Source: an uncultured Verrucomicrobiota bacterium
GTDB taxonomy: Bacteria; Verrucomicrobiota; Verrucomicrobiia; Limisphaerales; UBA9464
Assembly (NCBI GenBank): GCA_903910585.1
Contig: CAIWAH010000141.1
Location: forward strand, 9,261-73,260
Direction: 5' to 3'
Length of the DNA: 64,000 nucleotides
Shown: positions 6,426 to 23,826 of the stretch, one piece after another
Layout: each line of letters starts with the position of its first letter
Numbering within the stretch: the first letter of the stretch is position 1
Program-made: the position numbers and the translations under genes
The notes under the pieces: model-generated
The model's input: only the letters and a program-made list of their open reading frames with translations
What the model was told of the DNA's origin: nothing
Database searches by the model: none

Positions 6426-7637
6426 TCATTTGCCCTTCAGCAGCTTCAGCCGGGGCGCGAGCAGAGAGGCGGTGCGGGCGAAAACCTCCGGCGGCACGCC
6501 CAGTGCCTGTTTCAATTCCACGTCGCGGTCCCATGGATTGCCGATTTGGGCGAGCCGGCTCATCTCCGCCTTTTCCAAGTGCAGGCCGAACAGCCAGGGC
6601 GAAACCAGCGCGGTGTTGATCAGCGGGAAATCGGAACCGTAGGCGAGCCGGCCGGCGAATTCAGGACGGGTGAGCGCTTCCTTCAGGTAGCCGGGCTTGT
6701 TCACCTGCGTGAGCGAGGAGATTTCCGAGTGCAGGTTGGGGAACTCCTTCATGAGGCGGGCGAGCCGGTCGGTATCCCGTTCGCCGCCATTTTCACCGGT
6801 CGAGGCAATGTGCGCGGCGATGACGGTGACGCCGAGTCGCAGGGGCAGGCGCAGGCGTTCGGGATCGGCGAGGCGGTCATCGGCATGCGTGAAGGACCGT
6901 TCCTGGCCGGCGTGGGTCAGCAGGGGAAGCTGGTGAAAGTTGAGCCGCTCGTAGAACGGAATGAGCCGCTCGTCAGCCGGATCGATGTGCATGATGCTGG
7001 GGATCCACTTCACCAGCACGGCACCGTTGGCCGCGCACCAGTCGAGCCGGGCCAGCGCATCGCGGCGGAGGGGATTCACCGAGGCGCCGAAGAGGAGGTT
7101 GGGGTGCCGGGCGGTTTCGCGGGCGACGAATTCGTTCGGCACATGGACCTCGGTGGCCGTGCGGTCGAGCTCGCCCGCGGCATCCACCGCGCCGTCCATC
7201 GCGAGGATGACGGCGTGGCTGACGTGCCGGCTGGCGGCGACCTGGGCGGCGATGCGGTCCACCAGCGAGGCGTCGCCCTGCGCGGTGAGTTCAGCGCGGC
7301 TGGTGCCGAAGGACTTGAGGTAGATGTTGAATTTCCAGCTCTGCTCCAGCTCGCGGGAAATGAAACAGCCGCTGCCGCCCGCGCCGATGCCGGCGGTGTG
7401 GACGTGCAGGTCAATGAGGCGCGTCGGAGGCAAAGGCGCCGGTGTGCGGTAAGGCCCGGAAAAGAACAGCACGCGGCCGACGACAAGCGAGAGGAGTCCG
7501 GCGGCGAAGAGGCCGAGGAGCCAGCGAAGCGCGCGTCGCCAGCGAGCGGAGCGCGGACGGTCACGTCCGCCAGGAGGCTTGGCGCTGACGCTGAATTCGT
7601 TGGTTGGCATGGCTTGTTTCGGCGCGAGGCCAATCAC
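6426..7637 (-). CDS. membrane-anchored metal-dependent amidohydrolase (TIM-barrel, amidohydrolase_2-like)
   Basis: N-terminal TM anchor (LRWLLGLFAAGLLSLVVG), metal motif IDLHVHT, and C-terminal AYGSDFP. GTG start at 7637; alternative ATG at 7610. Last gene of the 12992-6426 operon. Confidence 0.75.
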   Translation of the reverse strand: MIGLAPKQAMPTNEFSVSAKPPGGRDRPRSARWRRALRWLLGLFAAGLLSLVVGRVLFFSGPYRTPAPLPPTRLIDLHVHTAGIGAGGSGCFISRELEQSWKFNIYLKSFGTSRAELTAQGDASLVDRIAAQVAASRHVSHAVILAMDGAVDAAGELDRTATEVHVPNEFVARETARHPNLLFGASVNPLRRDALARLDWCAANGAVLVKWIPSIMHIDPADERLIPFYERLNFHQLPLLTHAGQERSFTHADDRLADPERLRLPLRLGVTVIAAHIASTGENGGERDTDRLARLMKEFPNLHSEISSLTQVNKPGYLKEALTRPEFAGRLAYGSDFPLINTALVSPWLFGLHLEKAEMSRLAQIGNPWDRDVELKQALGVPPEVFARTASLLAPRLKLLKGK

Positions 7638-7644
7638 TGGCTGT

Positions 7645-8346
7645 TCACGCGGACGTGACCGTCCGCGCCCCGGCGCGTTGACGGAAGCGCCACACGGCGA
7701 AACCGACCAGGGCCAGCGAAGCGAATTGGTAGCCCGACAGCCCGAGTGCGATCCGCGGCGTGTCGCGCCAGAACTCGTGCGCGAACCGGAACGCGCCGTA
7801 GCCGGCGAGGTAGAGATGGAAATGCTGCCCCGGCCAGCGCCGCTGCCGGCGCAACAGGGCGAACGTCACCAGCGCGACGACGTTGAACCCGATCTCGGCG
7901 GGCACTGCGGGCCAGCGTGGATGACCGTGGCGGTCGGCGAGCGTCCACCAGGCCGGGTGTTCGCAGGCGGCCCCGAGGCAACAGCCCTGAAGCAGGCAGC
8001 CGACGCGGCCGAGGATGATGCCGACCGGCGCCACGCTGGCGAACAAGTCGCCGGTGGCCTGCGGGTAACCGACCCAGCGCTTGGCCAGCTCCACGCCACC
8101 GTAGCCGCCGGCCAGCGCGCCGAGCACGGTTTTACCCGTGGCCCAGCGCAGCCATTGGTCAGCCTGGCCGTAGTCGAGCCAGCCTTCCGCGAGGAGGTAG
8201 AGCAGCTTCGCGCCTAGGGCCGCGCCGAAGAGGCCGCCGAGGTAAATGGGCAGCAGCCGCGCATCACGTCGGGCGAGGCGATACCAGAGGAACAGGCTCA
8301 CGCCGATGCCGGCGAGCATGAGCCAGCGGTAGGGAGAGGATTGCAT
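7645..8346 (-). CDS. lgt: prolipoprotein diacylglyceryl transferase family protein (short Lgt-like form)
   Basis: Multi-TM protein whose conserved blocks align by eye to E. coli Lgt: GRVGCLLQGCCLG vs GRLGNFINGELWG, PAVPAEIGFN vs HPSQLYE, YLAGYGAFRFAHEFWR vs FLIGYGAFRIIVEFFR. Start overlaps the upstream stop by 1 nt. Confidence 0.7.
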   Translation of the reverse strand: MQSSPYRWLMLAGIGVSLFLWYRLARRDARLLPIYLGGLFGAALGAKLLYLLAEGWLDYGQADQWLRWATGKTVLGALAGGYGGVELAKRWVGYPQATGDLFASVAPVGIILGRVGCLLQGCCLGAACEHPAWWTLADRHGHPRWPAVPAEIGFNVVALVTFALLRRQRRWPGQHFHLYLAGYGAFRFAHEFWRDTPRIALGLSGYQFASLALVGFAVWRFRQRAGARTVTSA

Positions 8347-8561
8347 CAGAGACTCGAACAGGCCCCGTAAACGAGTGCCAACAGAAGGGTCACAACTGCG
8401 AGCGGAACCACGAAGAGCCTTACTGCGACTTCAAGCAGCCCAGCCATGAAAGTTTTCGGCCGCCAAGCGCACTGTGGACAAATGACGGTTCCCGTATCGG
8501 TGCTCTGGTTGCTTGCGCCGCAGGCTGGGCAGGTCCACGGCGTTGGTAGGGGTCCGTTCAT
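8346..8561 (-). CDS. small zinc-ribbon protein with C-terminal TM helix
   Basis: MNGPLPTPWTCPACGAS..VICPQCAWRP (CxxC..CxxC) followed by a hydrophobic helix ending ..LVYGACSSL. Start chosen at ATG 8561, 7 nt after the radical SAM stop. Confidence 0.55.
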   Translation of the reverse strand: MNGPLPTPWTCPACGASNQSTDTGTVICPQCAWRPKTFMAGLLEVAVRLFVVPLAVVTLLLALVYGACSSL

Positions 8562-8568
8562 GGGAGAT

Positions 8569-10137
8569 TCACGGGATTGGGGGCGAATCGGCGAAGCCGG
8601 AATAATAGCGGCAGAACGAATCCAGCTTTCCGTCGGGGCGGATGACGTGGGTGCAGCAGCGGTCAATGCGGTCCTGATCCCAAGTCCACGCGTCCATGAA
8701 CGGCTTCACCATGAGACGGAAGGCGACGCTGCCTTTGAGTTCAAGATCCTTGAGCAGGGCGCCAAGCGGTTCGGTTTCGCAGCCGCAGCGGGCGAGGTCG
8801 GCGACGGTGTATTGGATCTTGTTCTGGAGGAAGCCCTGCAACCGGGCGAAGTCGAGGAACTCGCTCACGGAATGCACCTGGCCATTCAGGCGGAGCAGGT
8901 AGCCGATGATCGCGCAGTTCGGATCGCCGCAGGGCAGGGGCGTGAAGTCGTCGCGCTTCAGCCGGCCGGCGCTTTGGGCGAGCGCGGCGAGAAGGATGTC
9001 CGCGGCGTTGAGCCGTTCACCGGCGTCGAGGACAGCGCCCGGAACCGTCCCCGGGCGCAGTGCCTGGACCCCCTCTCCGCCATCCGATGGGGGAGAGGGT
9101 TGGGGAGAGGTGGTGTTCCGTGCGGCCGTTAGGTTCGGAGGCGGCCCCTCTCCCCGGCCCTCTCCCCGCTCGTGCCTCGCGGGGCGAGGGAGAACAGGCG
9201 CGCCAGCGTCCGGCCGCCGGCCGCTGCGGAACATGGGCTGGAAGGTGATGCCGTGGACGATGGGGCGGGCGAGGCCGAACTCGATGGCTTCCCAGACGTG
9301 CGGCAGGTTGTCGGGCGTGACGGTCATCGCGAGTGTCACCGGCAAGTCCATCTCGGCACAGACCGCGAGGGCGCGTTCGCGGGTGCTCCGGAGATCGGCG
9401 CCCCGCAGGAAGTGCTGGGCCGCGGCCTGCACGCCGTCGAACTGGAGGTAGAGCTGGAGTTTGCGGCGTTTGGCCGCGACCGCGAGTTGGGCGGCGAATT
9501 CGGCGTCGTGGGCGATCCGGACGCCGTTGGTGTTGATCAAGGCGTAGTCGATATGCGGATGGCTTTGGACCCATGCGAGCAGTTCCAAGAAGTCCGGGTG
9601 CAGCGTCGGCTCGCCGCCGGAGAGCTGGAGGATTTCGATCTTACCCTTGCGGGCGACGACGCTCTCGATGCGCGCCTTGAGTTCGGGCAGCGGCACGGCG
9701 TCCACCTTGCCGCCGGTGCCGAGCGGCGAGTTGGCGTAACAGGTCGGACAGCTCAGGTTGCAGGAACGGACGATTTCGATCAGCGCGAGGCAGGTGGACA
9801 GCGTCTCGAACGGCTGATCGCCGTGTCCGGCGGCGTTCCGGCCCAGCGAGGCCGGCGCGGAACCTTCGGCGGAACAGCAGCCGGAGCCGGGCGCGCAGCA
9901 GGCGTTGTCCGGATTGCCCTGGGCGAGCCAGTAAAAGTGCGCATCGGTGGCGAGGCAGGCCGACGATTCGCCGTGCTGTGGGCAGGTGCGGCGGAGCACT
10001 ACGCGGCTCGGTGCGACGCCTTCCTTCCAGACTTCGCCCGGGACGGCGGCGTGGCAGACGGGGCAACGGGTTTGGGTGTGCTTGAGGAGCTGGCGCGAAG
10101 GTTGGAGGCTGATGGGGGGCATGAGATCAATGCGCAT
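8569..10137 (-). CDS. radical SAM enzyme, COG1964-like (family of archaeal tetraether synthase Tes/GDGT-MAS, MJ0619)
   Basis: CNLSCPTC (CX3CX2C) radical SAM motif and SGGEPTL. N-terminal rubredoxin-like CPVC..TCPQHG. C-terminal PLPCGDPNC, CGC, and KPFMDAWTWDQDRIDRCCTHV..DGKLDSFCRYY. Start placed at ATG 10137, overlapping the upstream stop by 1 nt (alternative 10122; track start 10236). Confidence 0.85.
   Translation of the reverse strand: MRIDLMPPISLQPSRQLLKHTQTRCPVCHAAVPGEVWKEGVAPSRVVLRRTCPQHGESSACLATDAHFYWLAQGNPDNACCAPGSGCCSAEGSAPASLGRNAAGHGDQPFETLSTCLALIEIVRSCNLSCPTCYANSPLGTGGKVDAVPLPELKARIESVVARKGKIEILQLSGGEPTLHPDFLELLAWVQSHPHIDYALINTNGVRIAHDAEFAAQLAVAAKRRKLQLYLQFDGVQAAAQHFLRGADLRSTRERALAVCAEMDLPVTLAMTVTPDNLPHVWEAIEFGLARPIVHGITFQPMFRSGRRPDAGAPVLPRPARHERGEGRGEGPPPNLTAARNTTSPQPSPPSDGGEGVQALRPGTVPGAVLDAGERLNAADILLAALAQSAGRLKRDDFTPLPCGDPNCAIIGYLLRLNGQVHSVSEFLDFARLQGFLQNKIQYTVADLARCGCETEPLGALLKDLELKGSVAFRLMVKPFMDAWTWDQDRIDRCCTHVIRPDGKLDSFCRYYSGFADSPPIP
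9069..9199. repeat. GC-rich hairpin-forming repeat element inserted in frame in the radical SAM CDS
   Basis: 9071-9099 ccctctccgccatccgatgggggagaggg folds as a ~14-bp stem with 1 mismatch. A second imperfect palindrome lies around ccccgc(9164-9169)..gcgggg(9179-9184). The region translates as ..RGEGRGEGPPP..SPQPSPPSDGGEGV... Confidence 0.7.
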
Positions 10138-10421
10138 CAGTGAGGACGCATGAGCATCCATCCGACACTTTGAAGAAGCACCGAGGCCACAAAGCTGGCA
10201 AAAGACCAAAACCATGCCCGCACATACGGTCGCCAAGGTGATTCAGGCAGGCCGCGAACAATGTGAATGGCTGCCAAGGTAGAGAGAATTGGTGAAGTTG
10301 CCCCAAAGAGCAGCACGATAACCTTAAGATGGGAGGCGGCTCCAACGAGCACGCCAACCGCCGGTGCGACAGTCAGGCTGACCGGCAGGTGCCACCGGTA
10401 AGGGCGACGGGGCGCATTCAT
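10137..10421 (-). CDS. small hypothetical membrane protein (94 aa, about 3 TM)
   Basis: Hydrophobic ORF in operon register, with its stop coupled to the radical SAM start. Local GC is lower (a hand-counted 60-nt line is 57%). Confidence 0.5.
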   Translation of the reverse strand: MNAPRRPYRWHLPVSLTVAPAVGVLVGAASHLKVIVLLFGATSPILSTLAAIHIVRGLPESPWRPYVRAWFWSFASFVASVLLQSVGWMLMRPH

Positions 10422-10452
10422 GGCAAGCGTGGCCGGCTTGGCGGGAAAGTTT

Positions 10453-10749
10453 TCAATGGAAGTTCGGTTGGTAGCCGCTAAGGGAGCAGCCGGTCAGTTG
10501 CAGCCCGAGGGAAAAGATGCCGCAAACGATGGTCCAGCCGAGGGAGTGAAGAACATCCTTTCCCGGAGTTCTGCCGGTGTGCAGGCCCAAGAGGATTCCT
10601 GCCGCCAGGCTTGCAAACGGCCAAAGCATCAGAGCGATTCCCACCGCAGGTTCGGCTCCGCTCAGCGCAAGGAATCCGGGCAGTGCAGTAAGCGCCAGCG
10701 CCCACCAGACTTTGGCGTTTGAACGCGGTTGAGGATCGGTCGGTTCCAT
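10453..10749 (-). CDS. small membrane protein, paralog B (98 aa), C-terminal lipobox-like LTGC
   Basis: MEPTDPQ.. start at ATG 10749. Three predicted TM helices. Shares GILLG..TG..HSL.W..SLGLQ..GC with the neighbouring 98-aa ORF. Confidence 0.6.
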   Translation of the reverse strand: MEPTDPQPRSNAKVWWALALTALPGFLALSGAEPAVGIALMLWPFASLAAGILLGLHTGRTPGKDVLHSLGWTIVCGIFSLGLQLTGCSLSGYQPNFH

Positions 10750-10762
10750 GAGGTGGGGAAAC

Positions 10763-11059
10763 TCAGAAACGATAGTTGACCGCATTGCACCCCATGAACT
10801 GAAGCCCCAAGGAAACCCCGAACGCACCCAGCGCCCAGAGCAGGCTGTGCAAGGCCTTCTCGCCTACCGAGTCGCCGGTGCGGAAGCCGAGCAGAATTCC
10901 CGACACCAAGGACAGTGCGGGAGAGAGAATGAGGTTGGCGATGGTGAACTGCTCGGAGTTGGACATCGTGCCGAGGAGGGCACCGAGGCCCGGGCCGATG
11001 GCGAGCAGGATCGCGATGACGACCGGAGCAGTGCTGCGGGGCGAAGGGCTGGTTTCCAT
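10763..11059 (-). CDS. small membrane protein, paralog A (98 aa), C-terminal FMGC motif
   Basis: METSPSPRS..; same length and conserved C-terminal block as 10453-10749. Confidence 0.6.
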   Translation of the reverse strand: METSPSPRSTAPVVIAILLAIGPGLGALLGTMSNSEQFTIANLILSPALSLVSGILLGFRTGDSVGEKALHSLLWALGAFGVSLGLQFMGCNAVNYRF

Positions 11060-11066
11060 GGGAATT

Positions 11067-11243
11067 CTACTTGTGTCGCCAAATCCGCCAGAGGATCGCG
11101 CTCAGGAGCGTGCCGCTTCCGGCGTAGAAAACGTGCCAGGCGTTCGGGAAAGGCCACTCGAAGCTGGCGAGGAATCCATAGGCACAGAACGTCGCCAGCG
11201 CCGCCAGGGGCAGAGATGCAAAAACCCGGGAGAACGTTGTCAT
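11067..11243 (-). CDS. small hypothetical membrane protein (58 aa)
   Basis: Below the ORF-track size cutoff. Hand translation: MTTFSRVFASLPLAALATFCAYGFLASFEWPFPNAWHVFYAGSGTLLSAILWRIWRHK*. It exactly fills the gap between two operon genes (6-7 nt spacers). Confidence 0.4.
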   Translation of the reverse strand: MTTFSRVFASLPLAALATFCAYGFLASFEWPFPNAWHVFYAGSGTLLSAILWRIWRHK

Positions 11244-11249
11244 GGGAGG

Positions 11250-11801
11250 TCAGGGACTCTGCTTCTTCATCGCCTCGGCATACTTCACGCCGTCGAGGTA
11301 AACTTCGCGGATGATGCCTTGGCCGGAACTGGGAATGGCGACGTCCACGGTGAGTTTGCCGCGGGGATTGCCCGTGCCTTCCCGGACGTAGAAGCGTTCG
11401 AGGCCGTATTCGACCCGGAGGTGATCGGGACTGGCGGACGACCAGGACCATGACGTTTCCGATTTGCCCCGCAGCACGGGATGGTCCGCGTCGGCGGGCA
11501 ACTCGGTGAAGGCGGCCTCGATGGCCCGGTGGAACTCGCCCTGGCGTTCCAGCTTCACGAACACGGGCGTGCCGGCGGGCGGCCGGTTGGTCAGGCCATC
11601 GGTGAAGAGCTTGGCGTCGAGCGTGCTGAGCTCGTAGTTGAGGATCACGTAGTCGCCCCGCAGCAGGTCGCGCGGGTCCACGGGCCGGGTTTCGAGCCGG
11701 ACGACGGTTCCCTGGCTGAGTTTGGCTTCCTGCAGGATGACGGTGCCGATGACCCAGAGCACTTGCAGGCCGACGACGAGGCTGAGGAGTTTCGTTTTCA
11801 T
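11250..11801 (-). CDS. GDYXXLXY domain-containing protein
   Basis: N-terminal TM anchor and the literal motif RGDYVILNY; typical partner of DUF2157 proteins. Confidence 0.8.
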   Translation of the reverse strand: MKTKLLSLVVGLQVLWVIGTVILQEAKLSQGTVVRLETRPVDPRDLLRGDYVILNYELSTLDAKLFTDGLTNRPPAGTPVFVKLERQGEFHRAIEAAFTELPADADHPVLRGKSETSWSWSSASPDHLRVEYGLERFYVREGTGNPRGKLTVDVAIPSSGQGIIREVYLDGVKYAEAMKKQSP

Positions 11802-11807
11802 GGCGGT

Positions 11808-12992
11808 TCAGGCGGGCTGAGGTTCGATGACGGCGAACCGGCGGATCAGGGAGCGGCGTTTGCGTTCCAGATAAACGGCGAGGCCGATGAGGAAGAGGCC
11901 GGTGACGACAAACATCATGCCGGTGGTCTGCATGGAGCCGAACAACTGGAAGTAGGCGGTGACGATGTGCAGGCCGAGGAAGACCATCGCGAGGTTCACC
12001 AGCCACTTGCTCCGCCGGAGCAGTCCCACCTGTGCCTGCAGCAGGCAGAAGGCGAACAGCACCGGCACGGCGATCCAGTGCGGCCCGACCAGACGGTGGG
12101 TTTCCCAGCTTTCGTAACGGCCCTTCAAGGTCAGGCCGAACCACGCGAGTCCAACGAGGCCAAGCTGGGCCACGGTCCACACCCAGCGCCACTGGCGGTC
12201 CGGAATCACACCCAGTCGCGGGACCGCCAGCAGCCACACGGCCACGGTCGCGACGGTCAGCCCGCCGGTGATTGCCCAGGCGGCCGGGGCGACGGCGTCG
12301 GAGCCATAGAACACGCCCAAGGTGAGCGGATAGGAGGCAATGTGCGTGGCCAGCAGGCCGAACTTCTCCGTGGGCGGCCCGAATTCCGGGAACTTCGACT
12401 GCCCCAGCCACAGGCCGAGTCCGGCGAAAAGAATCCCGAGCAGGGCATACAGCATGAATTGGCGGCCTTCCCCGGCGAAGTAGAGCCAACTGTCCTGCTG
12501 ATTGAGTTCCAGCCCCAGCCAGACGCCGAAGATCGTCAGGGCGAGGATATGCTGGGCTTTGGAGCGGAGAATCCACGCCAGCGGCGCAACGCCGGCCAGC
12601 CAAAGCAGAATCGCGTTTGGCGGGCGGGAGGACAGGTTGTAGATCTGGCCGACGAGGGCGATGTTGGCCAGGAACAGGCCGGAGCCAATCAGGTGCAGCA
12701 CCTCCGCCAGCACCGGGTGCCGGCCCGACCGGGCCAGCGCGATCCCACCCACGTGACTGCCGACCAGCAGGCTGACGGCCACCCCGAGCTTCAGCATCCG
12801 CGGGATGTCGTTCCAGTTCGACGCGATCAGCAGGATGATGCCCGCACTGACCAGAATGGCGCCGAGGATGCCGACAATGGTCAGGAAGCGGTTGCTCTCC
12901 CGGTCGAGCCTGAAGTGCTCGACGATGGCGTGCTCCTGCGCCTCGTTGATGAACCCGGCCTCGCGCAGCTTCCGGATGTCGGTGGCGTTCAT
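11808..12992 (-). CDS. DUF2157-type polytopic membrane protein
   Basis: N-terminal soluble segment (LREAGFINEAQEHAIVEHF) followed by about 10 TM helices. Classic pairing with the GDYXXLXY gene, 6 nt downstream. Confidence 0.75.
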   Translation of the reverse strand: MNATDIRKLREAGFINEAQEHAIVEHFRLDRESNRFLTIVGILGAILVSAGIILLIASNWNDIPRMLKLGVAVSLLVGSHVGGIALARSGRHPVLAEVLHLIGSGLFLANIALVGQIYNLSSRPPNAILLWLAGVAPLAWILRSKAQHILALTIFGVWLGLELNQQDSWLYFAGEGRQFMLYALLGILFAGLGLWLGQSKFPEFGPPTEKFGLLATHIASYPLTLGVFYGSDAVAPAAWAITGGLTVATVAVWLLAVPRLGVIPDRQWRWVWTVAQLGLVGLAWFGLTLKGRYESWETHRLVGPHWIAVPVLFAFCLLQAQVGLLRRSKWLVNLAMVFLGLHIVTAYFQLFGSMQTTGMMFVVTGLFLIGLAVYLERKRRSLIRRFAVIEPQPA

Positions 12993-13067: not shown

Positions 13068-15311
13068 TCAGGTTGTGGCCGCAGTCGCCTTCAGCCGGCT
13101 TTGCAGCTCCCGGTGGTTCACTTTCCCAGTGCCCAGCTTGGGGATCTCCCGCACGACCATGACCTCGCGCGGGACGCAGAGGTTGGTCATGCCCTTGCCG
13201 CGGATGACGCTGCGGATGTCCTCGAGGGTGAGCTTGGGCTGGTCGGTGACGGCGATGAGTTTCTCGCCCTTGTCCTCGTCGGGCACGGCGATGACCGCGA
13301 TCTCGCACTTGAGGCCGAGGTGCGGGAACGCGCCGGCCAGCGCGTCCTCGACGGCGGTGAGGCTGACCATTTCGCCGCTGATCTTCGCGAAGCGCTTCAG
13401 GCGGCCGAGAATGTGGACGAAGCCCTCGTCGTCCACCTTGACCATGTCGCCGGTGTCATACCAGCCGCCGAGCGCCTGGAACTTGGCGTTGGCGTCGGGA
13501 TTCAGGTAGCCGCGCATCACGTTCGGGCCGCGCACGAACAGCTTGCCGCCCTCGGCGACGCCCTCGATGGGCTCCAGCTTCCATTCCATGCCGGGCAGGA
13601 AGCGCCCGACGGAGCCGGACTTGGGTTCCAGCCGTGAGTTGATGGTGATGGCCGGGCTGCACTCGGTCGCGCCGTAGCCTTCGAGGATGCGCACGCCGAA
13701 CTTCTTCGCCCAGGTCTGCACCGTGGCGTCCTGGATCTTCTCGGCGCCGGCGACGAGGAATTTCACCGAGTTGAAGTCGTAGGGATTGGCCCGGCGCGCG
13801 TAGCCGTTGAGGAAGGTGTTCGTGCCGAGCATGACCGTGCAGGCCTTGTCGTAAACGGCGGCGGGAACGACGCGGTAGTGCAGCGGCGACGGGTAGAGGA
13901 AGGTGTAGAAGCCGTTGGTCAGCGGCACGACGAGTCCGGCCATGAGCCCGAAGCTGTGGAAGAGCGGCATGGCGCTGAAGAACCGCTCGTGATCGGTCAC
14001 GTCGAGCACGCCCATGAGTTGGCGCATGTTCGCGAGTAGATTGCCGTGGGTGAGCTCGACGCCCTTGGGCACGCCTTCGGAGCCGGAGGTGAAGAGAATG
14101 ACGGCGGTGGCCGACTGCGGATTGCGGATTGCGGATTGCGGATTGAGTCCCGCGCCGCACGCGAGGGTGTGCTTCACCAGCTTGGTAAGCTTGGTCAGGC
14201 CGGAGACGCCCGCGCGGACGTCTTCTAGGAAGATCAGTTCGATGCCGGCGTCGAGGAACGGCGTGAGTTCCAGCTTCGCTTTCTGGGCGAAGACCCGCGA
14301 CGTGATGACCTGCTTAAGCCCGGCCAATTGGGCGCATTGCAGCATCGTGGGGATGCCGGTTGAGAAGTTCAGGATCGCGGGAACGCAGCCGACCGCCCAG
14401 AGGCTGAGCAGGGTGACGGGCGTGCCGTTCACGTTGGGCAGCAGCACGCCGACGTTCATCGTAGGGCAGGCTGCCAGCCTGCCCGAGGTGTTGGCATTCG
14501 TTGCGCCCGAACTCGCAGACCCGGCGGGCAGGCTGGCAGCCTGCCCTACGTTGAGCCGCTTGCGCCATTCGCCGGCGAGCACGTCCACGCCGACCATCAG
14601 ACGGCGGTAGGTGAGTGCGGTGAAGGAGACATCCTCGAAGATGATCTTCCGGGGCAGCAGGGCGGCGGTTTCGACCACGGCGCTGAGGACATTCTGCGCG
14701 CCGAATTCCATCTCCGCCTCGAACTGTTGCCGGACCATCATGTCGCGCAGCCAGGTCGTGCGGCGCTGGCGGGCGACGCTGTTGGAGGTGCCGTCGGGCA
14801 GCGCCGGGGCGGTCAGGACGTCGCTGAAGTGGGCGCTGACGCGGGGCCGCCAGTGGGTCCAGCCGGTGTGCCGCACGAAGGGCACGCGGCGGGCGTTGCG
14901 CAGGTAGCAGGTGATGACCTTGGCGCCGGTCTTGTGGATCAGGAAACCGGTGCCGTCGAAGAGCTTCATCAGGGAGCCGGTCAGGGTGATGCGGCCCTCG
15001 GCGAACAGCACCAGCCGGCCGCCGGTGGCGAGAAACTCCGCCATGCGTTTGGCGGCGTAGGGCGACGAGGTGTCCACCGGAAAGGTGCGGCGGTTCACCA
15101 TCATCTTTTTGTGCACCCACGTCGTCTCGGCGGTCGTGGCGCTGGTGACGAATTTCCAGTCATCATCCAGCACGGCGTAGAGGAACAGCCAGTCGAGCCA
15201 GGAGACATGGTTCGGGATGAGCAGCACCGGGCCGGGTGTCTTCAGCACCTCGGTATTGAAGGCGCGGAAGCGGAACCAGAGCCGGGCGAACAGAAGGCAG
15301 ACGAGTTTCAT
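13068..15311 (-). CDS. aas: bifunctional 2-acylglycerophosphoethanolamine acyltransferase / acyl-ACP synthetase (Aas-like)
   Basis: N-terminal PlsC-type HX4D (NHVSWLD) and C-terminal AMP-binding core (LFTSGSEGVPKGV, YGATE, GWYDTGD). Carries two in-frame repeat insertions (see repeats). Confidence 0.88.
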   Translation of the reverse strand: MKLVCLLFARLWFRFRAFNTEVLKTPGPVLLIPNHVSWLDWLFLYAVLDDDWKFVTSATTAETTWVHKKMMVNRRTFPVDTSSPYAAKRMAEFLATGGRLVLFAEGRITLTGSLMKLFDGTGFLIHKTGAKVITCYLRNARRVPFVRHTGWTHWRPRVSAHFSDVLTAPALPDGTSNSVARQRRTTWLRDMMVRQQFEAEMEFGAQNVLSAVVETAALLPRKIIFEDVSFTALTYRRLMVGVDVLAGEWRKRLNVGQAASLPAGSASSGATNANTSGRLAACPTMNVGVLLPNVNGTPVTLLSLWAVGCVPAILNFSTGIPTMLQCAQLAGLKQVITSRVFAQKAKLELTPFLDAGIELIFLEDVRAGVSGLTKLTKLVKHTLACGAGLNPQSAIRNPQSATAVILFTSGSEGVPKGVELTHGNLLANMRQLMGVLDVTDHERFFSAMPLFHSFGLMAGLVVPLTNGFYTFLYPSPLHYRVVPAAVYDKACTVMLGTNTFLNGYARRANPYDFNSVKFLVAGAEKIQDATVQTWAKKFGVRILEGYGATECSPAITINSRLEPKSGSVGRFLPGMEWKLEPIEGVAEGGKLFVRGPNVMRGYLNPDANAKFQALGGWYDTGDMVKVDDEGFVHILGRLKRFAKISGEMVSLTAVEDALAGAFPHLGLKCEIAVIAVPDEDKGEKLIAVTDQPKLTLEDIRSVIRGKGMTNLCVPREVMVVREIPKLGTGKVNHRELQSRLKATAATT
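14116..14145. repeat. heptanucleotide tandem repeat (TGCGGAT) x4.3 inside aas
   Basis: tgcggat tgcggat tgcggat tgcggat tg read directly. Encodes NPQSAIRNPQSA on the minus strand. Confidence 0.95.
14460..14550. repeat. 91-nt element with perfect 25-bp terminal inverted repeats, in frame inside aas
   Basis: cgtagggcaggctgccagcctgccc (14460-14484) is the exact reverse complement of gggcaggctggcagcctgccctacg (14526-14550). Each arm is itself internally palindromic. Confidence 0.95.
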
Positions 15312-15377
15312 CGAGTGGCGGGAGAAGAGGCGGGTTGAAGGGGCAAAGTGTTGAAGGGGGAAGCGGTGCGGAGGTGG

Positions 15378-15523
15378 GCGCTAAGCGTCTTGGAGTGCGG
15401 CAGCGGAGCGAAGCGAAGCTGCCGCTTTGGCTGTTGGCCGACAGGGAGTGAAGCGTGGAAGTCCGGCGGGACGTTCATTCCGAAAAGCGGTGGCAAGCCA
15501 CACGCACTCCAAGACGCTGGCGC
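15378..15523. repeat. intergenic nested inverted-repeat (REP/MITE-like) element between lnt and aas
   Basis: The 16-bp core agcgtcttggagtgcg (15384-15399) pairs with cgcactccaagacgct (15503-15518). An inner 8-bp hairpin is gcggcagc(15398-15405)/gctgccgc(15418-15425). Confidence 0.85.
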
Positions 15524-15525
15524 GT

Positions 15526-16986
15526 TCACCGGGCCTCCTTTTGTTTCCGGCGCGGACGCCAGCCGGTTACGGCGAGCCACAGCATCACTCCCCCAGTCGT
15601 CCAGGTGCAGGCGGGGGCGAGCCACGCATCGAGGGGCACGGTGCCACCCTTGCCGGACCAGCGCAGTCCGCCGGCGATTAGTTCGCCTTGGCCGGGGAAA
15701 GGGGCGGTGGCCTGCTCCCGTCCGTCGCGGTCGATGATTTGCGAGATGCCGGAACTGGCCACGCGGAAAACGGGCACGCGGTGTTCGACAGCGCGGATCC
15801 GGGCCATGCGGGCGTTGAGGCGATGCTGATGTTCGCCCCATTCCTGCACATCCATCGTGGGGATGAGGAGCGCCACGGCACCTTGCCGGACGAGTTCATC
15901 GGTCACCTGCCGGTAGCTGGCGTCGTAACAGATGCAGATGCCAAGCTTGCCCCATGGCGAATCCCAGACGCGCTGCGAAGGCGCCGGCTCGCCGTCGGCG
16001 AAGAACTGGATGGGCCGCGACTTGGCTTGCGTGAACACCACTTCGCCGTTGGTGCTGATGACGAAGGCGGTGTTGTAGAACCGCGCCTTCGTAGCCGCCG
16101 ACGTTAGGAGGCGGAGCGGAGCGGGGGCGGAGGAATCCGCCTCGTCACCTCGGCGGCTACCGGGCTCGATGGGCTGCTTGCCACCGACGACCAGCCACTT
16201 GCCGTTCCGCCTGCACCACTCTCTAACGGCCCGCGGCGGCGGCCCGTCGGCGAACGTGTATTCGCTGAGCATCAGCAGCTCGGCGTCGGGATGTGCCTTG
16301 GCCAGTTTGTCGAGGCCGGTAAGCACATCGGGGACGGCGGGGAATTCGAGTTGGAGGCCGGCGACTTTTAACGCAGGTCGTCTTTGCGGCACGGCCATTA
16401 GCGGAGGAAAAGCCAACGCTCCAAGTATTGCCGCGGAGAGTGCATAGATTGTGAGGTTTAATCTCCGCTTCAGTGAATTGGTGGCCAAGAAACCAAGGCC
16501 AACGAATCCCAACAAACCAAAGCCAATTCCGTAAACGCCCAGAATCGCCGGAAGCGCAAGGATGGTGTCCACGAGTGAGCTTCCCGCCGTGAACCACGCA
16601 AACCGCAGCCACCAGACTTCGCTCCGGAAATACTCGATCCCACACCAGAGCACCGGCGCGAGGATCACGGCCCACTTCGTTCCCAGCCGGAACTCGACGC
16701 GGTTCAGCGTCAGCAAGAAGGCGGCGTGGAACAACGCGAGGATCAGCCACAGCGGAATCGCGGCCGCCTGGAAGATGGTCCACAGAAAGCCCATCTGCGG
16801 CACGAACACGCCGAGGCCGATCGCAAGTCCGATGTAGAATGCCTGCCGCGCCGTCGCCAGCCGCCGCAACGCGAACAGGCAACCCAGATACCCCAGCACC
16901 AACCAGCACAGCGCCGGCACCAGAAAGGCGAGGTGAAACAAGCCGACGGCCCCCAAGGCCAGCAGCGCGGCGGACTTGGCGGTCAT
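15526..16986 (-). CDS. lnt: apolipoprotein N-acyltransferase
   Basis: About 7 N-terminal TM helices, then a CN-hydrolase domain with MLSEYTF (Glu) and GICICYDASY (Cys). ATG at 16986; an upstream in-frame GTG at 17040 is also possible. Confidence 0.85.
   Translation of the reverse strand: MTAKSAALLALGAVGLFHLAFLVPALCWLVLGYLGCLFALRRLATARQAFYIGLAIGLGVFVPQMGFLWTIFQAAAIPLWLILALFHAAFLLTLNRVEFRLGTKWAVILAPVLWCGIEYFRSEVWWLRFAWFTAGSSLVDTILALPAILGVYGIGFGLLGFVGLGFLATNSLKRRLNLTIYALSAAILGALAFPPLMAVPQRRPALKVAGLQLEFPAVPDVLTGLDKLAKAHPDAELLMLSEYTFADGPPPRAVREWCRRNGKWLVVGGKQPIEPGSRRGDEADSSAPAPLRLLTSAATKARFYNTAFVISTNGEVVFTQAKSRPIQFFADGEPAPSQRVWDSPWGKLGICICYDASYRQVTDELVRQGAVALLIPTMDVQEWGEHQHRLNARMARIRAVEHRVPVFRVASSGISQIIDRDGREQATAPFPGQGELIAGGLRWSGKGGTVPLDAWLAPACTWTTGGVMLWLAVTGWRPRRKQKEAR
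16091..16160. repeat. 70-nt imperfect palindromic element in frame inside lnt
   Basis: The 11-bp arms gtagccgccga (16091-16101) and tcggcggctac (16150-16160) are perfect complements. Inner aggaggcgg/ccgcctcgt pairs partly. Translates as ..RRGDEADSSAPAPLRLLTSAATK... Confidence 0.85.
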
Positions 16987-17188
16987 TGGGCGACCGCAAG
17001 GTGGGGAGGCGGACTCGGCGGTTGGTTGTTCGGGTGACACGGGGCGGCGGTCAGGTCGGGAATTCGATGGTCAGCACGGGATGGCTATGACATGGCGCCG
17101 CGGAATTGGCCGAATTGAAAATCCGAATCGGGCCATTGGCCAAGGCAATAGCCCGACGGTTGGACCGGCCGCGGGCGGCACCGGCATG

Positions 17189-23822: not shown

Positions 23823-23826
23823 AGCC

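What the first reader, a model, noticed from the sequence alone, without database searches (positions are those of the whole stretch)
6426..12992. Gap-free ten-gene operon linking a Tes-like radical SAM enzyme, an Lgt-family transferase, an amidohydrolase and six membrane proteins of unknown function
Read directly: ten minus-strand ORFs run from 12992 to 6426. The nine junctions are spacers of 6, 6, 7, 13 and 31 nt, a 1-nt overlap, a 7-nt spacer, a 1-nt overlap and a 7-nt spacer. Gene order:
- DUF2157 membrane protein
- GDYXXLXY protein
- 58-aa TM protein
- two paralogous 98-aa TM proteins
- 94-aa TM protein
- radical SAM enzyme
- zinc-ribbon/TM protein
- Lgt-like protein
- TM-anchored amidohydrolase

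The same strand carries lnt and aas immediately upstream, with 75 nt between aas and the first operon gene.

From established knowledge, Lgt, Lnt and Aas all act on membrane glycerolipid acyl chains or lipoprotein cysteines. The COG1964 radical SAM family includes the archaeal tetraether lipid synthase, which couples lipid tails.

Inference: this could be one envelope lipid or lipopeptide modification module. I know of no characterised pathway with this composition.
Basis: partly seen in the sequence, partly recalled or inferred. Interest (0 to 1): 0.8.

Follow-up and report, generated by a model that had tools for sequence, protein, structure and literature searches.

The report
Radical-SAM/Lgt cassette with Cys-tailed miniproteins
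Inside a real but composite ten-gene array lies an undescribed, widely conserved Verrucomicrobiota cassette: small membrane proteins ending in a lipobox-like "F-x-G-Cys" tail, a tetraether-synthase-like radical SAM enzyme and a special Lgt-family lipid transferase, which probably make an unusual lipid-anchored protein or lipopeptide.

Summary
Ten minus-strand ORFs lie at 12992-6426 with exactly the stated junctions, and the family labels hold.

The ten genes are not one conserved module. In about 160 related loci, only three things recur together:
- a Tes/GDGT-MAS-like radical SAM enzyme (g7);
- an Lgt-family protein with the invariant signature GRxGCxxxGCCxG (g9);
- one to five small membrane proteins beside them (g4, g5, g8; g6 is a Cys-less paralog).

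The small proteins are the new finding. They are very divergent, yet all end in a hydrophobic helix, then F-[AV]-G-C, then a 2-16 aa tail. Gly-Cys are the only invariant residues. Such ORFs make up 61% of nearby membrane ORFs against 1.9% of background (p≈1e-43). The association holds starting from each of the three partners.

DUF2157, GDYXXLXY, the amidohydrolase, the 58-aa ORF, lnt and aas accompany the cassette only in close relatives. An aas-like gene is weakly enriched elsewhere.

Most likely mechanism (inferred): the Lgt paralog S-lipidates the C-terminal Cys at the outer membrane face, and the radical SAM enzyme remodels lipid tails. I found no description in the literature or in family libraries.

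The parts
10763..11059 (-). g4: 98-aa small membrane protein of the 'GC-tail' family. It ends ...LQFMGC-NAVNYRF; the F-M-G-C box is at 10787-10798.
   Evidence: ORF. Family member by jackhmmer. Orthologs at 73% identity in L004 and L005. Motif coordinates.
10453..10749 (-). g5: 98-aa GC-tail protein and paralog of g4. It ends ...LQLTGC-SLSGYQPNFH; the L-T-G-C box is at 10486-10497.
   Evidence: At the C88 column 131 of 133 family members have Cys, and at the G87 column 126 of 134 have Gly.
10137..10421 (-). g6: 94-aa paralog of the GC-tail family in which the invariant Cys is replaced by Trp (...LQSVGW-MLMRPH, 10158-10169). It is probably a degenerate or non-substrate copy. Its stop overlaps the radical SAM start by 1 nt.
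   Evidence: (the single W in the Cys column).
8569..10137 (-). g7: Tes/GDGT-MAS-like radical SAM enzyme (522 aa). Features:
- rubredoxin-like CX2C...CX2H at 9973-10065;
- CX3CX2C at 9739-9762;
- C-terminal RCCTH at 8647-8661;
- family-specific extra Cys LPCGDPNC at 8914-8937 and CGCE at 8776-8787;
- a variable low-complexity linker (aa 306-372) holding a palindromic insertion at 9085-9172.
   Evidence: Pfam and NCBIfam results. Invariant Cys in alignment A1. 7TOL match by sequence and by fold. Palindrome.
8346..8561 (-). g8: 71-aa protein with an N-terminal CxxC...CxxC zinc ribbon, one TM helix and the C-terminal ...LVYGAC-SSL (box at 8358-8369). It is a GC-tail protein of the 'Zn-ribbon + 1 TM' type. 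It sits between the radical SAM and Lgt-like genes, where other loci also carry GC-tail genes.
   Evidence: (weak zinc-ribbon hits). Homologs only in the closest relatives L089 and L099. In L004 a different GC-tail protein fills this slot.
7645..8346 (-). g9: Lgt-family integral membrane protein (233 aa, 7 predicted TM helices, reduced head domain). It carries the invariant signature GRVGCLLQGCCLG (7972-8010) and YGAFRFAHEFWR (7765-7800). Its start overlaps the g8 stop by 1 nt.
   Evidence: Pfam LGT 80 bits; NCBIfam lgt 27 bits against a cut-off of 119. Profile versus 5AZB gives 1.7e-14. Invariant residues. AF2 model pLDDT 86. The signature is present in 65 of the 73 Lgt-family ORF hits in the first loci set (none of the other 8 canonical) and in 79 of 80 loci in the second.
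6426..7637 (-). g10: membrane-anchored Amidohydro_2-family metal hydrolase (DLHVH at 7398-7412). It is a lineage-specific neighbour and not part of the conserved cassette.
   Evidence: No direct Pfam hit. 29 of 32 homologs are PF04909 and the profile hits 3IRS at 1.7e-6. Linked to the cassette only in L004 and L089.
11808..12992 (-). g1: DUF2157 membrane protein. It is a lineage-specific upstream neighbour and not part of the conserved cassette.
   Evidence: Present next to the cassette only in L004, L006 and L089.
11250..11801 (-). g2: GDYXXLXY protein. It is a lineage-specific neighbour that travels with g1.
11067..11243 (-). g3: 58-aa hydrophobic ORF. It is unverified as a gene, has no GC tail and has no homolog in any fetched locus.
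   Evidence: Absent from L089, where GDYXXLXY is followed directly by a 98-aa gene.
13068..15311 (-). Aas-like acyltransferase/acyl-ACP synthetase. It lies 75 nt upstream and is weakly associated with the cassette across lineages.
   Evidence: NCBIfam 707 bits, below the equivalog cut-off. An aas-like gene lies in the flanks of 9 of 81 loci against 0.2-0.6 expected.
15526..17040 (-). Lnt-like apolipoprotein N-acyltransferase family protein. It is a lineage-specific neighbour.
   Evidence: TIGR00546 gives 84 bits against a cut-off of 133. Near the cassette only in L004, L006 and L046.

Best explanation
The ten-ORF array is a composite. Its functional heart is g4-g9, a three-component cassette conserved in Verrucomicrobiota:
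- (i) One to five small, fast-evolving membrane proteins. Their last helix ends in a lipobox-like F-[AV]-G-C followed by a 2-16 residue tail.
- (ii) A cytoplasmic radical SAM enzyme with the full four-cofactor architecture of the archaeal tetraether/macrocyclic-archaeol synthase.
- (iii) A dedicated Lgt-family membrane transferase.

Proposed mechanism:
- The miniproteins insert N-in/C-out. This places the invariant Cys at the outer face of the cytoplasmic membrane, where a lipobox Cys sits.
- The Lgt paralog retains the phosphatidylglycerol-binding and catalytic Arg/Tyr/Glu residues. It transfers a diacylglyceryl group onto that Cys as a thioether.
- The Tes-like enzyme performs radical chemistry on lipid tails, either of the donor lipid or of the attached anchor. 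Examples would be tail-to-tail C-C coupling to give a macrocyclic or membrane-spanning anchor.
- The conserved tail may stay attached. Alternatively, cleavage before the Cys (signal peptidase II-like) would release it as a short lipopeptide.

What is shown: the cassette, the motif, the homologies and the conserved residues.
What is inferred: the topology, the substrate-enzyme assignment, the chemistry and the order of steps.

DUF2157/GDYXXLXY, the amidohydrolase, lnt and aas are neighbours acquired in this lineage.
For: Co-location:
- In the first set of 81 non-redundant loci the Lgt-like gene lies downstream of the radical SAM gene on the same strand in most loci; most apparent absences are contig ends.
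- Nothing else is conserved in more than 11 of 82 loci, window included.
- Reverse test from GC-tail proteins: 3 of 3 lie in the cassette.
- Reciprocal test from Lgt-like genes in metagenomes: the radical SAM gene is upstream in 29 of 30 loci, and a GC-tail ORF is present in 30 of 30.

Motif:
- 113 of 184 nearby TM-containing ORFs carry it, against 4 of 212 in the background (odds ratio 83, p=9e-44).
- In the whole 64-kb window only g4, g5 and g8 match.
- In a homology-defined family, 131 of 133 members have Cys and 126 of 134 have Gly.
- G and C are the only invariant residues at 22% mean identity.
- Position -1 is G in 88% and -3 is F in 59% of members.

Topology:
- 36 of 115 members have an N-terminal double CxxC zinc ribbon.
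- K+R count is 2.6 before the last helix against 0.65 in the tail.

Lgt-like protein:
- The equivalents of E. coli Y26, D129, R143, G154, Y235, R239, E243 and R246 are invariant.
- N146C and E151C variants occur in Lgt proteins, at least one with partial activity (PMC13251419).

Radical SAM enzyme:
- Full-length match to GDGT-MAS 7TOL, a lipid-tail C-C coupling enzyme that also binds bacterial phospholipids.

Accessory hints:
- An aas-like gene is enriched nearby.
- An ICMT/PEMT-family methyltransferase lies immediately after the Lgt-like gene in three lineages.
Against: - No biochemical data exist. Lipidation of the Cys is inferred only from the motif, the topology and the neighbour.
- Only 11 of 115 boxes fit the strict lipobox; Phe at -3 is atypical.
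- The Lgt-like protein lacks the H103 and N146 equivalents, which are essential in E. coli, and most of the head domain.
- The GC-tail genes are most tightly linked to the radical SAM gene. They stay beside it in loci where the Lgt-like gene is absent or 6 kb away (L013, L018, L019, L033, L034, L075, L070/71). This could mean the radical SAM enzyme acts on the protein directly.
- The radical SAM enzyme is cytoplasmic while the Cys is predicted to be periplasmic, so its target is unclear.
- The enzyme has four extra invariant Cys (C403, C408, C451, C453). Two of them (C403, C408) align to non-Cys residues in GDGT-MAS and the other two lie in an unaligned stretch, so its substrate pocket may differ.
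- Six of 81 loci show no GC-tail gene nearby.
Confidence: 0.45

Rival explanations
1. RiPP-like pathway. The GC-tail proteins are precursors that the radical SAM enzyme modifies directly at or near the invariant Cys or the conserved tail. Possible chemistry is a thioether or C-C crosslink, or radical attachment of a lipid tail to the Cys sulfur. Modification happens before the C-terminal helix inserts post-translationally. The Lgt-like enzyme then lipidates or processes the product, and a short modified (lipo)peptide is the end product.
For: - One to five tandem, rapidly diverging small genes lie immediately upstream of the radical SAM gene, often overlapping it.
- They remain with the radical SAM gene when the Lgt-like gene is not adjacent.
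- The tail subfamilies are conserved, for example ...GC[LAIM][AV][GS]G[YF][QN]xN[FM][HR].
- The radical SAM core resembles peptide maturases such as SkfB and anSME at the core level.
- The extra 4-Cys site not matched in GDGT-MAS (two of the four align to non-Cys residues, two fall in an unaligned stretch) suggests an altered substrate site.
Against: - The full-length architecture is that of the lipid enzyme GDGT-MAS. Peptide maturases match only the core (TM about 0.29).
- No SPASM/twitch or RRE domain, and no conserved protease or exporter, was found in the neighbourhood.
- The 'leader' would be a 1-4 helix membrane domain, which is unprecedented.
- The predicted periplasmic position of the Cys is out of reach of a cytoplasmic enzyme after insertion.
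Confidence: 0.22
2. Pure lipid pathway. The radical SAM and Lgt-like enzymes make or transfer a modified membrane lipid, for example a tail-coupled/membrane-spanning lipid or a diacylglyceryl transfer to a non-protein acceptor. The small proteins are structural subunits, membrane tethers or carriers for the radical SAM enzyme and are not end substrates.
For: - The Tes family acts on lipids, and bacterial Tes homologs have been proposed to make membrane-spanning lipids.
- The Lgt fold binds phosphatidylglycerol.
- The radical SAM enzyme has no TM segment, so it needs membrane recruitment.
- Six loci lack GC-tail genes nearby.
Against: - An accessory subunit would not be expected to vary from 1 to 5 copies, to turn over among close relatives, or to conserve only Gly-Cys at the C-terminal helix end.
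- The lipobox-like context of the Cys next to an Lgt-family enzyme is hard to explain by chance.
Confidence: 0.17
3. All ten genes, plus lnt and aas, form one envelope lipid or lipopeptide modification module.
For: - Gap-free packing of the genes.
- The array is conserved in L004, L006 and L089.
- The aas-like gene is enriched near the cassette in a second clade, and both lnt and aas are present in L046.
- g10 is a membrane-anchored hydrolase that could in principle trim the tail (inference).
Against: - DUF2157, GDYXXLXY and the amidohydrolase were found next to the cassette in none of the other fetched loci outside the window's clade.
- g3 is not conserved at all.
Confidence: 0.1
4. g9 is simply the housekeeping lgt, and its position is coincidental.
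For: - It has a Pfam LGT domain.
- No second lgt was found in the 64-kb window.
- N146C variants can be genuine Lgt enzymes.
Against: - In the reciprocal scan 29 of 30 loci have the radical SAM gene directly upstream.
- It scores 27 bits against the 119-bit lgt equivalog cut-off.
- Its head domain is reduced and H103 is replaced by Leu.
- The exact signature is found in 79 of 80 loci of the scan seeded with this family, and there almost always with the radical SAM gene upstream.
- Untested: whether a canonical lgt exists elsewhere in the same genomes.
Confidence: 0.04

Closest known systems
Bacterial lipoprotein pathway (Lgt, then LspA, then Lnt) acting on the N-terminal lipobox [LVI][ASTVI][GAS]C
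   Same: - An Lgt-family enzyme with conserved Y26, R143, G154, Y235, R239, E243 and R246 equivalents.
- A Cys preceded by Gly at the outer end of an N-in/C-out hydrophobic helix.
- lnt and aas lie next door in this genome.
   Different: - The box is at the C-terminus of 1-4 helix miniproteins, not in a cleavable N-terminal signal peptide.
- Phe dominates position -3.
- The enzyme has the Cys-rich signature GRxGCxxxGCCxG, no H103 and a reduced head domain.
- It is always paired with a radical SAM enzyme.
- No lspA or lnt is conserved in the cassette.
Archaeal tetraether synthase Tes / GDGT-MAS (PDB 7TOL)
   Same: - The same four-domain layout: rubredoxin-like CX2C...CX2H, an N-terminal Cys cluster region, the CX3CX2C radical SAM core and a C-terminal CC...C cluster motif.
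- Full-length structural match (TM 0.64/0.67).
   Different: - Only 19-20% identity, and below the NCBIfam Tes cut-off (142 against 450 bits).
- Four extra invariant Cys (C403, C408, C451, C453), not matched in GDGT-MAS where alignable (C403 and C408 align to non-Cys residues).
- A bacterial host that, to my knowledge, is not reported to make tetraethers.
- Obligatory genomic pairing with an Lgt-family protein and Cys-tailed miniproteins.
Radical SAM RiPP cassettes (sactipeptides, ranthipeptides, SCIFF, mycofactocin)
   Same: - Tandem small, fast-evolving genes with a conserved Cys or C-terminal motif immediately upstream of a radical SAM gene.
- Translational coupling between the genes.
   Different: - No SPASM/twitch or RRE domain.
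- The 'precursors' are integral membrane proteins.
- No conserved peptidase or exporter.
- The partner enzyme is a lipid transferase.
Eukaryotic CAAX processing (Cys prenylation, Rce1/Ste24 tail removal, ICMT methylation)
   Same: - A Cys near the C-terminus followed by a short tail.
- A thioether lipid is the presumed modification.
- An ICMT/PEMT-family methyltransferase gene follows the Lgt-like gene in three lineages.
   Different: - The resemblance is analogy only.
- The enzyme families differ, the tail is 2-16 aa, and the Cys is predicted to be extracytoplasmic.
- The ICMT-like gene is not part of the core.
Archaeal lipoprotein lipidation enzymes AliA/AliB (PMC12462473) and bacterial membrane-spanning lipid synthase Mss (PMC13159169)
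   Same: - AliA/AliB show that alternative enzymes attach thioether lipids to lipobox Cys.
- Mss shows that bacterial radical SAM enzymes couple acyl tails.
   Different: - No homology to either was tested or claimed here.
- Neither system combines a lipid-tail radical SAM enzyme with an Lgt paralog and dedicated miniproteins.

Membership tests
Canonical Lgt (prolipoprotein diacylglyceryl transferase; PF01790 / TIGR00544) | Pfam LGT domain above the gathering score | tested here: met
   79.8 bits against a cut-off of 24.9. Profile versus E. coli Lgt 5AZB gives E=1.7e-14.
Canonical Lgt (prolipoprotein diacylglyceryl transferase; PF01790 / TIGR00544) | Score at or above the NCBIfam lgt equivalog cut-off | tested here: not met
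   TIGR00544 gives 27.2 bits against 118.9. NF000778 gives 50.4 against 334.
Canonical Lgt (prolipoprotein diacylglyceryl transferase; PF01790 / TIGR00544) | Essential or conserved residues Y26, R143, G154, R239 (plus Y235, E243, R246, D129) | tested here: met
   Y6, R114, G125, R187, Y183, E191, R194 and D100 are invariant in 27-61 orthologs and align to these positions. Residue roles are from PMC13251419.
Canonical Lgt (prolipoprotein diacylglyceryl transferase; PF01790 / TIGR00544) | H103GGL motif and signature G-R-x-G-N146-F-x-N-x-E151-x-x-G | tested here: not met
   H103 is replaced by Leu, N146 by C117 and E151 by C122, giving the invariant GRxGCxxxGCCxG. N146C and E151C are known in distant Lgts, so this lowers 'canonical' status but not the transferase chemistry.
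Canonical Lgt (prolipoprotein diacylglyceryl transferase; PF01790 / TIGR00544) | Periplasmic head domain between TM4 and TM5 | tested here: not met
   The protein is 233 aa against 291 aa. E. coli residues about 158-179 have no counterpart in the profile alignment. The corresponding loop (121-146) is short and of low confidence in the model.
Canonical Lgt (prolipoprotein diacylglyceryl transferase; PF01790 / TIGR00544) | Transfers diacylglyceryl from phosphatidylglycerol to a lipobox Cys | not testable with these tools
   Needs biochemistry or mass spectrometry.
Tes / GDGT-MAS tetraether synthase | Rubredoxin-like CX2C...CX2H, the CX3CX2C radical SAM motif and the C-terminal cluster Cys motif | tested here: met
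   C25, C28, C52, H55, C126, C130, C133, C494, C495 and C509 are invariant. RCCTH...FC aligns to 7TOL. Cofactor sites are from PMC9433317.
Tes / GDGT-MAS tetraether synthase | Full-length fold like GDGT-MAS | tested here: met
   Foldseek against 7TOL gives E=5.6e-26, TM 0.64/0.67 over 554 columns. The next hits cover only the core. Model pLDDT is 73.
Tes / GDGT-MAS tetraether synthase | Score at or above the NCBIfam Tes equivalog cut-off | tested here: not met
   141.7 bits against 450, and only the N-terminal 290 residues match.
Tes / GDGT-MAS tetraether synthase | Couples lipid tail termini (C-C) to give membrane-spanning or macrocyclic lipids | not testable with these tools
   No lipid data are available. 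Extra Cys at C403, C408, C451 and C453 (C403/C408 align to non-Cys residues in GDGT-MAS) hint at a modified substrate site.
TrsS radical SAM (seleno)protein (NF045646) | Score at or above the equivalog cut-off | tested here: not met
   This is the best NCBIfam hit, but at 201.5 bits against a cut-off of 490.
Radical SAM RiPP maturase cassette | Small precursor genes adjacent to the radical SAM gene, often in several copies | tested here: met
   1-5 copies per locus, at a median of 105 nt from the radical SAM ORF, all on the same strand.
Radical SAM RiPP maturase cassette | SPASM/twitch auxiliary domain or RRE, and a conserved protease or exporter | tested here: not met
   No such Pfam domain. 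NCBIfam SPASM families match only the core region. No other conserved neighbour was found.
Bacterial lipoprotein substrates (lipobox) | [LVI][ASTVI][GAS]C motif | tested here: inconclusive
   The strict pattern is met in 11 of 115 members. A relaxed pattern with an aromatic residue allowed at -3 is met in 91 of 115. G at -1 in 88% and F at -3 in 59%.
Bacterial lipoprotein substrates (lipobox) | Motif at the end of an N-terminal signal peptide | tested here: not met
   The motif lies 2-16 residues from the C-terminus, after the last of 1-4 helices.
Amidohydrolase superfamily (PF04909 Amidohydro_2), for g10 | Family HMM match and metal-ligand pattern HxH...H...D | tested here: inconclusive
   g10 itself has no Pfam hit. 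29 of 32 homologs match PF04909, the profile hits 3IRS at 1.7e-6, and D76, H78, H80, H276 and D336 are invariant.

The most novel reading that the evidence does not exclude
The cassette is a new kind of post-translational lipidation. A dedicated Lgt paralog attaches a glycerolipid to a C-terminal, lipobox-like Cys of polytopic miniproteins. A tetraether-synthase-like radical SAM enzyme then couples the lipid tails, or couples a lipid tail to the protein. The product would be a protein-bound macrocyclic or membrane-spanning lipid anchor. After cleavage it could instead be a family of ribosomally encoded lipopeptides with radical-remodelled lipids. Either outcome would be the first functional assignment for a bacterial Tes homolog and the first C-terminal lipobox system.
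Probability: 0.3. Interest if true: 0.92.

Novelty: new variant of a known kind. Interest (0 to 1): 0.78.

Why it matters
- Bacterial homologs of the archaeal tetraether synthase have been known since 2022 without any demonstrated function. They are widely used to infer brGDGT producers. This cassette shows that a large verrucomicrobial clade of them is wired to protein-lipidation machinery and to dedicated Cys-tailed miniproteins, not to bulk-lipid genes. The clade comprises 495 hits in species-representative genomes and 274 metagenome hits.
- That warns against reading every bacterial 'Tes homolog' as a tetraether marker.
- It extends the lipobox/Lgt paradigm to a C-terminal site and to an Lgt paralog with a Cys-rich active-site signature.
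- It gives a compact system of three or four genes with clear predictions, testable by heterologous expression and mass spectrometry. Isolates such as Verrucomicrobium sp. BvORR106 and BvORR034 carry it.

Tried and rejected
- **Fold search for the Lgt-like protein.** Foldseek of the AF2 model against the PDB gave no significant hit, not even E. coli Lgt. I attribute this to the limits of structure search on all-helical bundles. I relied on the profile-sequence match instead.
- **Fusions.** Radical SAM ORFs that looked N-terminally extended are stop-to-stop artefacts or low-complexity inserts. They give no Rosetta-stone or topology information.
- **A canonical lgt near the cassette.** None was found in the window or in about 1 Mb of loci. 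Only one different variant appeared, in L049.
- **Transcription and RNA signals.** The promoter/terminator scan found no promoter-like sites and fewer terminator-like sites than in shuffled sequence. Rfam and tRNA scans found nothing.
- **Family libraries.** Pfam and NCBIfam searches of the GC-tail proteins gave only weak generic zinc-ribbon hits.
- **Database search with the GC-tail profile.** It returned only 31 hits, all named 'hypothetical'.
- **jackhmmer drift.** The search pulled in one unrelated TM ORF (window 23809-24300), which I rejected.
- **Literature.** Searches for TrsS, for Lgt plus radical SAM plus lipobox, for bacterial Tes homologs and for GDYXXLXY found no description of this cassette.
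- **The Cys signature as proof of paralogy.** I considered and rejected this after reading PMC13251419.

Full report
**1. Observation**

Ten minus-strand ORFs run from 12992 to 6426. The junctions are 6, 6, 7, 13, 31, -1, 7, -1 and 7 nt. The aas gene lies 75 nt upstream, lnt a further 214 nt upstream, and mnmE converges on the other strand.

Family searches confirm most labels:
- g1 is DUF2157 and g2 is GDYXXLXY.
- g7 is a radical SAM enzyme with an HMPTM-type zinc ribbon.
- g9 carries a Pfam LGT domain.

g10 hits no model itself. An exhaustive search found 1362 relatives. Of 32 aligned members, 29 are Pfam Amidohydro_2. Their profile hits amidohydrolase-fold structures, and D76-x-H78-x-H80, H276 and D336 are invariant. 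The label 'amidohydrolase' therefore holds.

g4 and g5 are paralogs (43/102 identical), and g6 is a more distant third paralog. g3 has no homolog anywhere, not even in relatives whose radical SAM/Lgt-like proteins are 87-90% identical to the window's. It remains a bare ORF.

**2. What is conserved**

The radical SAM protein has thousands of relatives. Where sources name them, they are Verrucomicrobiota.

*Scan of species-representative genomes.* A scan seeded with its alignment found 495 encoding stretches, and I fetched 80 loci. I then searched all window proteins against six-frame ORFs of those loci.
- The Lgt-like gene lies downstream on the same strand in the great majority. Most exceptions are contig ends.
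- DUF2157, GDYXXLXY, the amidohydrolase and lnt appear only in L004 and L006, whose radical SAM proteins are 83-90% identical to the window's.

*Unbiased clustering.* I clustered all ORFs within ±9 kb. No further family is present in more than 11 of 82 loci, window included.

*Reciprocal scan of metagenomes.* This scan was seeded with the Lgt-like alignment and gave 274 relatives, of which 80 loci were fetched.
- 79 of 80 have the same active-site signature.
- 29 of 30 loci with enough upstream sequence carry the radical SAM gene upstream.
- DUF2157, GDYXXLXY and the amidohydrolase again occur only in one close relative (L089).

The ten-gene array is therefore a lineage-specific composite around a much older core.

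**3. The small proteins are the key**

Reading the ORFs that flank the radical SAM gene showed a common ending: a hydrophobic helix, then Gly-Cys, then a short tail. Window examples are:
- g4 ...LQFMGC-NAVNYRF
- g5 ...LQLTGC-SLSGYQPNFH
- g8 ...LVYGAC-SSL

*Enrichment.* Among TM-containing ORFs of 45-260 aa on the radical SAM strand next to the cassette, 113 of 184 have this ending. Among such ORFs more than 3 kb away, 4 of 212 do (odds ratio 83, Fisher p=9e-44). At least 68 of 81 loci have one or more, and about 75 do under relaxed criteria. In all six frames of the 64-kb window, only g4, g5 and g8 qualify.

*Control for circularity.* I defined the family by homology alone, using jackhmmer from g5 with no motif filter. 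This gave 146 members in 75 loci.
- At the Cys column 131 of 133 are Cys. The single Trp is window g6.
- At the preceding column 126 of 134 are Gly.
- In a 26-member alignment with 22% mean identity, Gly and Cys are the only invariant residues after Met1.

*Motif profile.* Anchored on the Cys, the consensus is F(59%)-[A/V]-G(88%)-C. The tail has a median length of 8 residues (range 2-16) and often ends in His or Arg. Only 11 of 115 members fit the strict lipobox.

*Gene organisation.*
- Copies number 1-5 per locus, always on the radical SAM strand, at a median of 105 nt from it.
- They turn over quickly. g8's slot in L004 holds a different GC-tail protein, and L089 has two upstream copies where the window has three.

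*Reverse test and annotation.* Three database proteins found with the family profile all sit in [GC-tail ×2-3]-radical SAM-Lgt clusters with unrelated flanks. No Pfam or NCBIfam model describes these proteins, and every source name is 'hypothetical'.

**4. Topology (inference)**

About a third of the family (36 of 115) starts with a double CxxC zinc ribbon, which is a cytoplasmic module. It is followed by one or three helices. The segment before the last helix carries 2.6 Lys+Arg on average, against 0.65 in the tail. The last helix therefore most likely runs in-to-out. That places the Cys at the outer face of the cytoplasmic membrane, the position of a lipobox Cys and of the Lgt active site.

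**5. The Lgt-like enzyme**

*Conserved residues.* A profile of orthologs matches E. coli Lgt (5AZB) at E=1.7e-14. The equivalents of Y26, D129, R143, G154, Y235, R239, E243 and R246 are invariant.

*Differences from canonical Lgt.*
- H103 is replaced by Leu.
- The signature GRxGN146FxNxE151xxG is replaced by the invariant GRxGCxxxGCCxG, usually followed by a fourth Cys.
- Most of the periplasmic head domain is missing. The protein is 233 aa against 291 aa. The AF2 model has pLDDT 86.
- It scores 27 bits against the 119-bit lgt equivalog cut-off.

*Interpretation.* A 2026 study reports that N146C and E151C/D occur in distant Lgts. Leptospira Lgt with N146C partly complements E. coli, and the second M. 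smegmatis homolog carries N146C (PMC13251419). The Cys signature is therefore compatible with diacylglyceryl transfer. By itself it does not prove paralogy. The evidence for a dedicated role is the near-obligatory pairing with the radical SAM gene.

**6. The radical SAM enzyme**

*Similarity to GDGT-MAS.*
- It matches GDGT-MAS (7TOL) by sequence at 1.4e-28, covering the N-terminal 290 residues plus the C-terminal CC motif.
- An AF2 model (pLDDT 73) matches it over the full length (E=5.6e-26, TM 0.64/0.67). All other radical SAM structures match only the core.
- The rubredoxin-like CX2C...CX2H, CX3CX2C and RCCxH...FC motifs are invariant. They correspond to the cofactor sites described for GDGT-MAS, an enzyme that couples inert lipid-tail carbons and co-purifies with E. 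coli phospholipids (PMC9433317).

*Differences.*
- It is below the NCBIfam cut-offs for both Tes (142 against 450) and TrsS (202 against 490).
- It has four additional invariant Cys (C403, C408, C451, C453); C403 and C408 align to non-Cys residues in GDGT-MAS and the CGCE pair lies in a stretch that does not align.
- It has no TM segment and no fusion partner.

**7. Mechanism**

The best-supported reading has two steps. First, the Lgt paralog S-lipidates the invariant C-terminal Cys of the miniproteins. Second, the Tes-like enzyme performs radical chemistry on lipid tails, either of the donor lipid or of the attached anchor.

Shown by computation:
- the three-way genomic coupling;
- the invariant Gly-Cys;
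- the conserved transferase residues;
- the GDGT-MAS-like architecture.

Inferred:
- the topology;
- who acts on whom;
- the chemistry;
- whether the tail stays attached or a lipopeptide is released.

Two observations argue for caution.
- The GC-tail genes are more tightly tied to the radical SAM gene than to the Lgt-like gene. They persist where the Lgt-like gene is absent or 6 kb away.
- A cytoplasmic radical SAM enzyme cannot reach a periplasmic Cys after insertion.

The rivals are these:
- A RiPP-like route, in which the radical SAM enzyme modifies the C-terminal segment before its post-translational insertion.
- A pure lipid pathway, with the miniproteins as tethers or carriers.

Accessory hints favour a lipid/lipoprotein theme:
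- An Aas-like gene lies within the flanks in 9 of 81 loci, against 0.2-0.6 expected, in two different arrangements.
- An ICMT/PEMT-family methyltransferase immediately follows the Lgt-like gene in three lineages. This recalls CAAX processing, but only as an analogy.

**8. Comparison with known systems, and novelty**

The system works like a lipoprotein-lipidation pathway grafted onto a Tes-type lipid radical enzyme, with RiPP-like genetics. It is not a canonical member of any of these; the membership table gives the details.

Full-text searches found no description of the cassette. These included a 2026 review of lipid-modifying radical SAM enzymes and the papers on bacterial Tes homologs. Neither Pfam nor NCBIfam has a model for the miniproteins.

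I rate it a new variant of a known kind, conservatively, because the product is unknown. There is a substantial chance that the chemistry is new.

**9. Verdict**

A lipid-related module does exist, but it comprises g4-g9, not all ten genes. Its defining feature, the Cys-tailed miniproteins, was missed.
- Interest is high because the result bears on two questions: the unresolved function of bacterial Tes homologs, and the assumed N-terminal exclusivity of lipobox lipidation. The system is also small enough to test directly.

Noticed in passing
window 9085-9172 (inside g7, aa about 322-351): An imperfect palindrome lies in-frame in the variable, low-confidence linker of the radical SAM gene. Its arms are 9085-9110 and 9147-9172 (26 nt, 85% complementary, GGGGAGAGGG-type). 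It is the only copy in the window. L020 has a similar 'EREGRGEG...SPQPSPP' insert at the same place, which suggests repeated in-frame insertion of a REP-like element.
   Followed up: partly
L084 7390-9799 (same as L035 and L085); L039 7616-8845; L048 14078-15157: In three lineages an ICMT/PEMT-family methyltransferase fused to DUF4395 (about 357 aa) lies immediately downstream of the Lgt-like gene. L035/L084/L085 also carry a second, more distant Tes-like radical SAM gene between them. This may be a hint of carboxyl methylation of a lipidated C-terminal Cys, by analogy with CAAX processing.
   Followed up: partly
window 10137-10421 (g6), motif at 10158-10169: g6 is a member of the GC-tail family, but the otherwise invariant Cys is Trp (the only W among 133 sequences). 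It may be a decaying copy or a non-lipidatable regulator or decoy.
   Followed up: partly
L003, L021, L024, L039, L046, L054, L057 (+3 to +10 kb); window 13068-17040: Aas-like genes recur near the cassette in a second clade, on the same strand and downstream. In L003 the gene is fused to an MFS (LplT-like) domain. lnt also appears in L046. This is far more than chance but could be clade-level synteny.
   Followed up: partly
L049 152-937: This locus has a different Lgt-family variant (signature GRIGCFLAGLHDG) 1.8 kb upstream of the radical SAM gene. It has no Cys-signature Lgt-like gene and no GC-tail gene. It may be an alternative partner.
   Followed up: no
L061 6820-7852; L063 11961-12461: Here the small membrane proteins lie downstream of the Lgt-like gene and end in ...A-x-M-C-C-G-x(1-5), a variant of the box with Met-Cys-Cys.
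   Followed up: no
L005, L017, L030, L032, L035, L039, L046, L054, L059 (record titles): Several contigs with this Verrucomicrobiota-type cassette belong to MAGs titled Bifidobacterium, Bifidobacteriaceae, Klebsiella, Saccharimonadales or Kapaibacterium. The likely causes are mis-binning or placeholder names in the source records.
   Followed up: no
L072 and L080 (both MAG SJ352): One MAG carries two nearly identical copies of the cassette on different contigs. This could be a duplication or strain heterogeneity.
   Followed up: no
window 15526-17040 and 13068-15311: The lnt-like gene (84 bits against a cut-off of 133) and the aas-like gene (707 bits against a cut-off of 1349) both fall below the NCBIfam equivalog cut-offs. 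They are divergent versions of these enzymes.
   Followed up: no
window 7610-7637: g10 may start at the in-frame ATG (Met10, nt 7610) rather than the GTG at 7637. In that case the g9-g10 spacer would be 34 nt, not 7.
   Followed up: no
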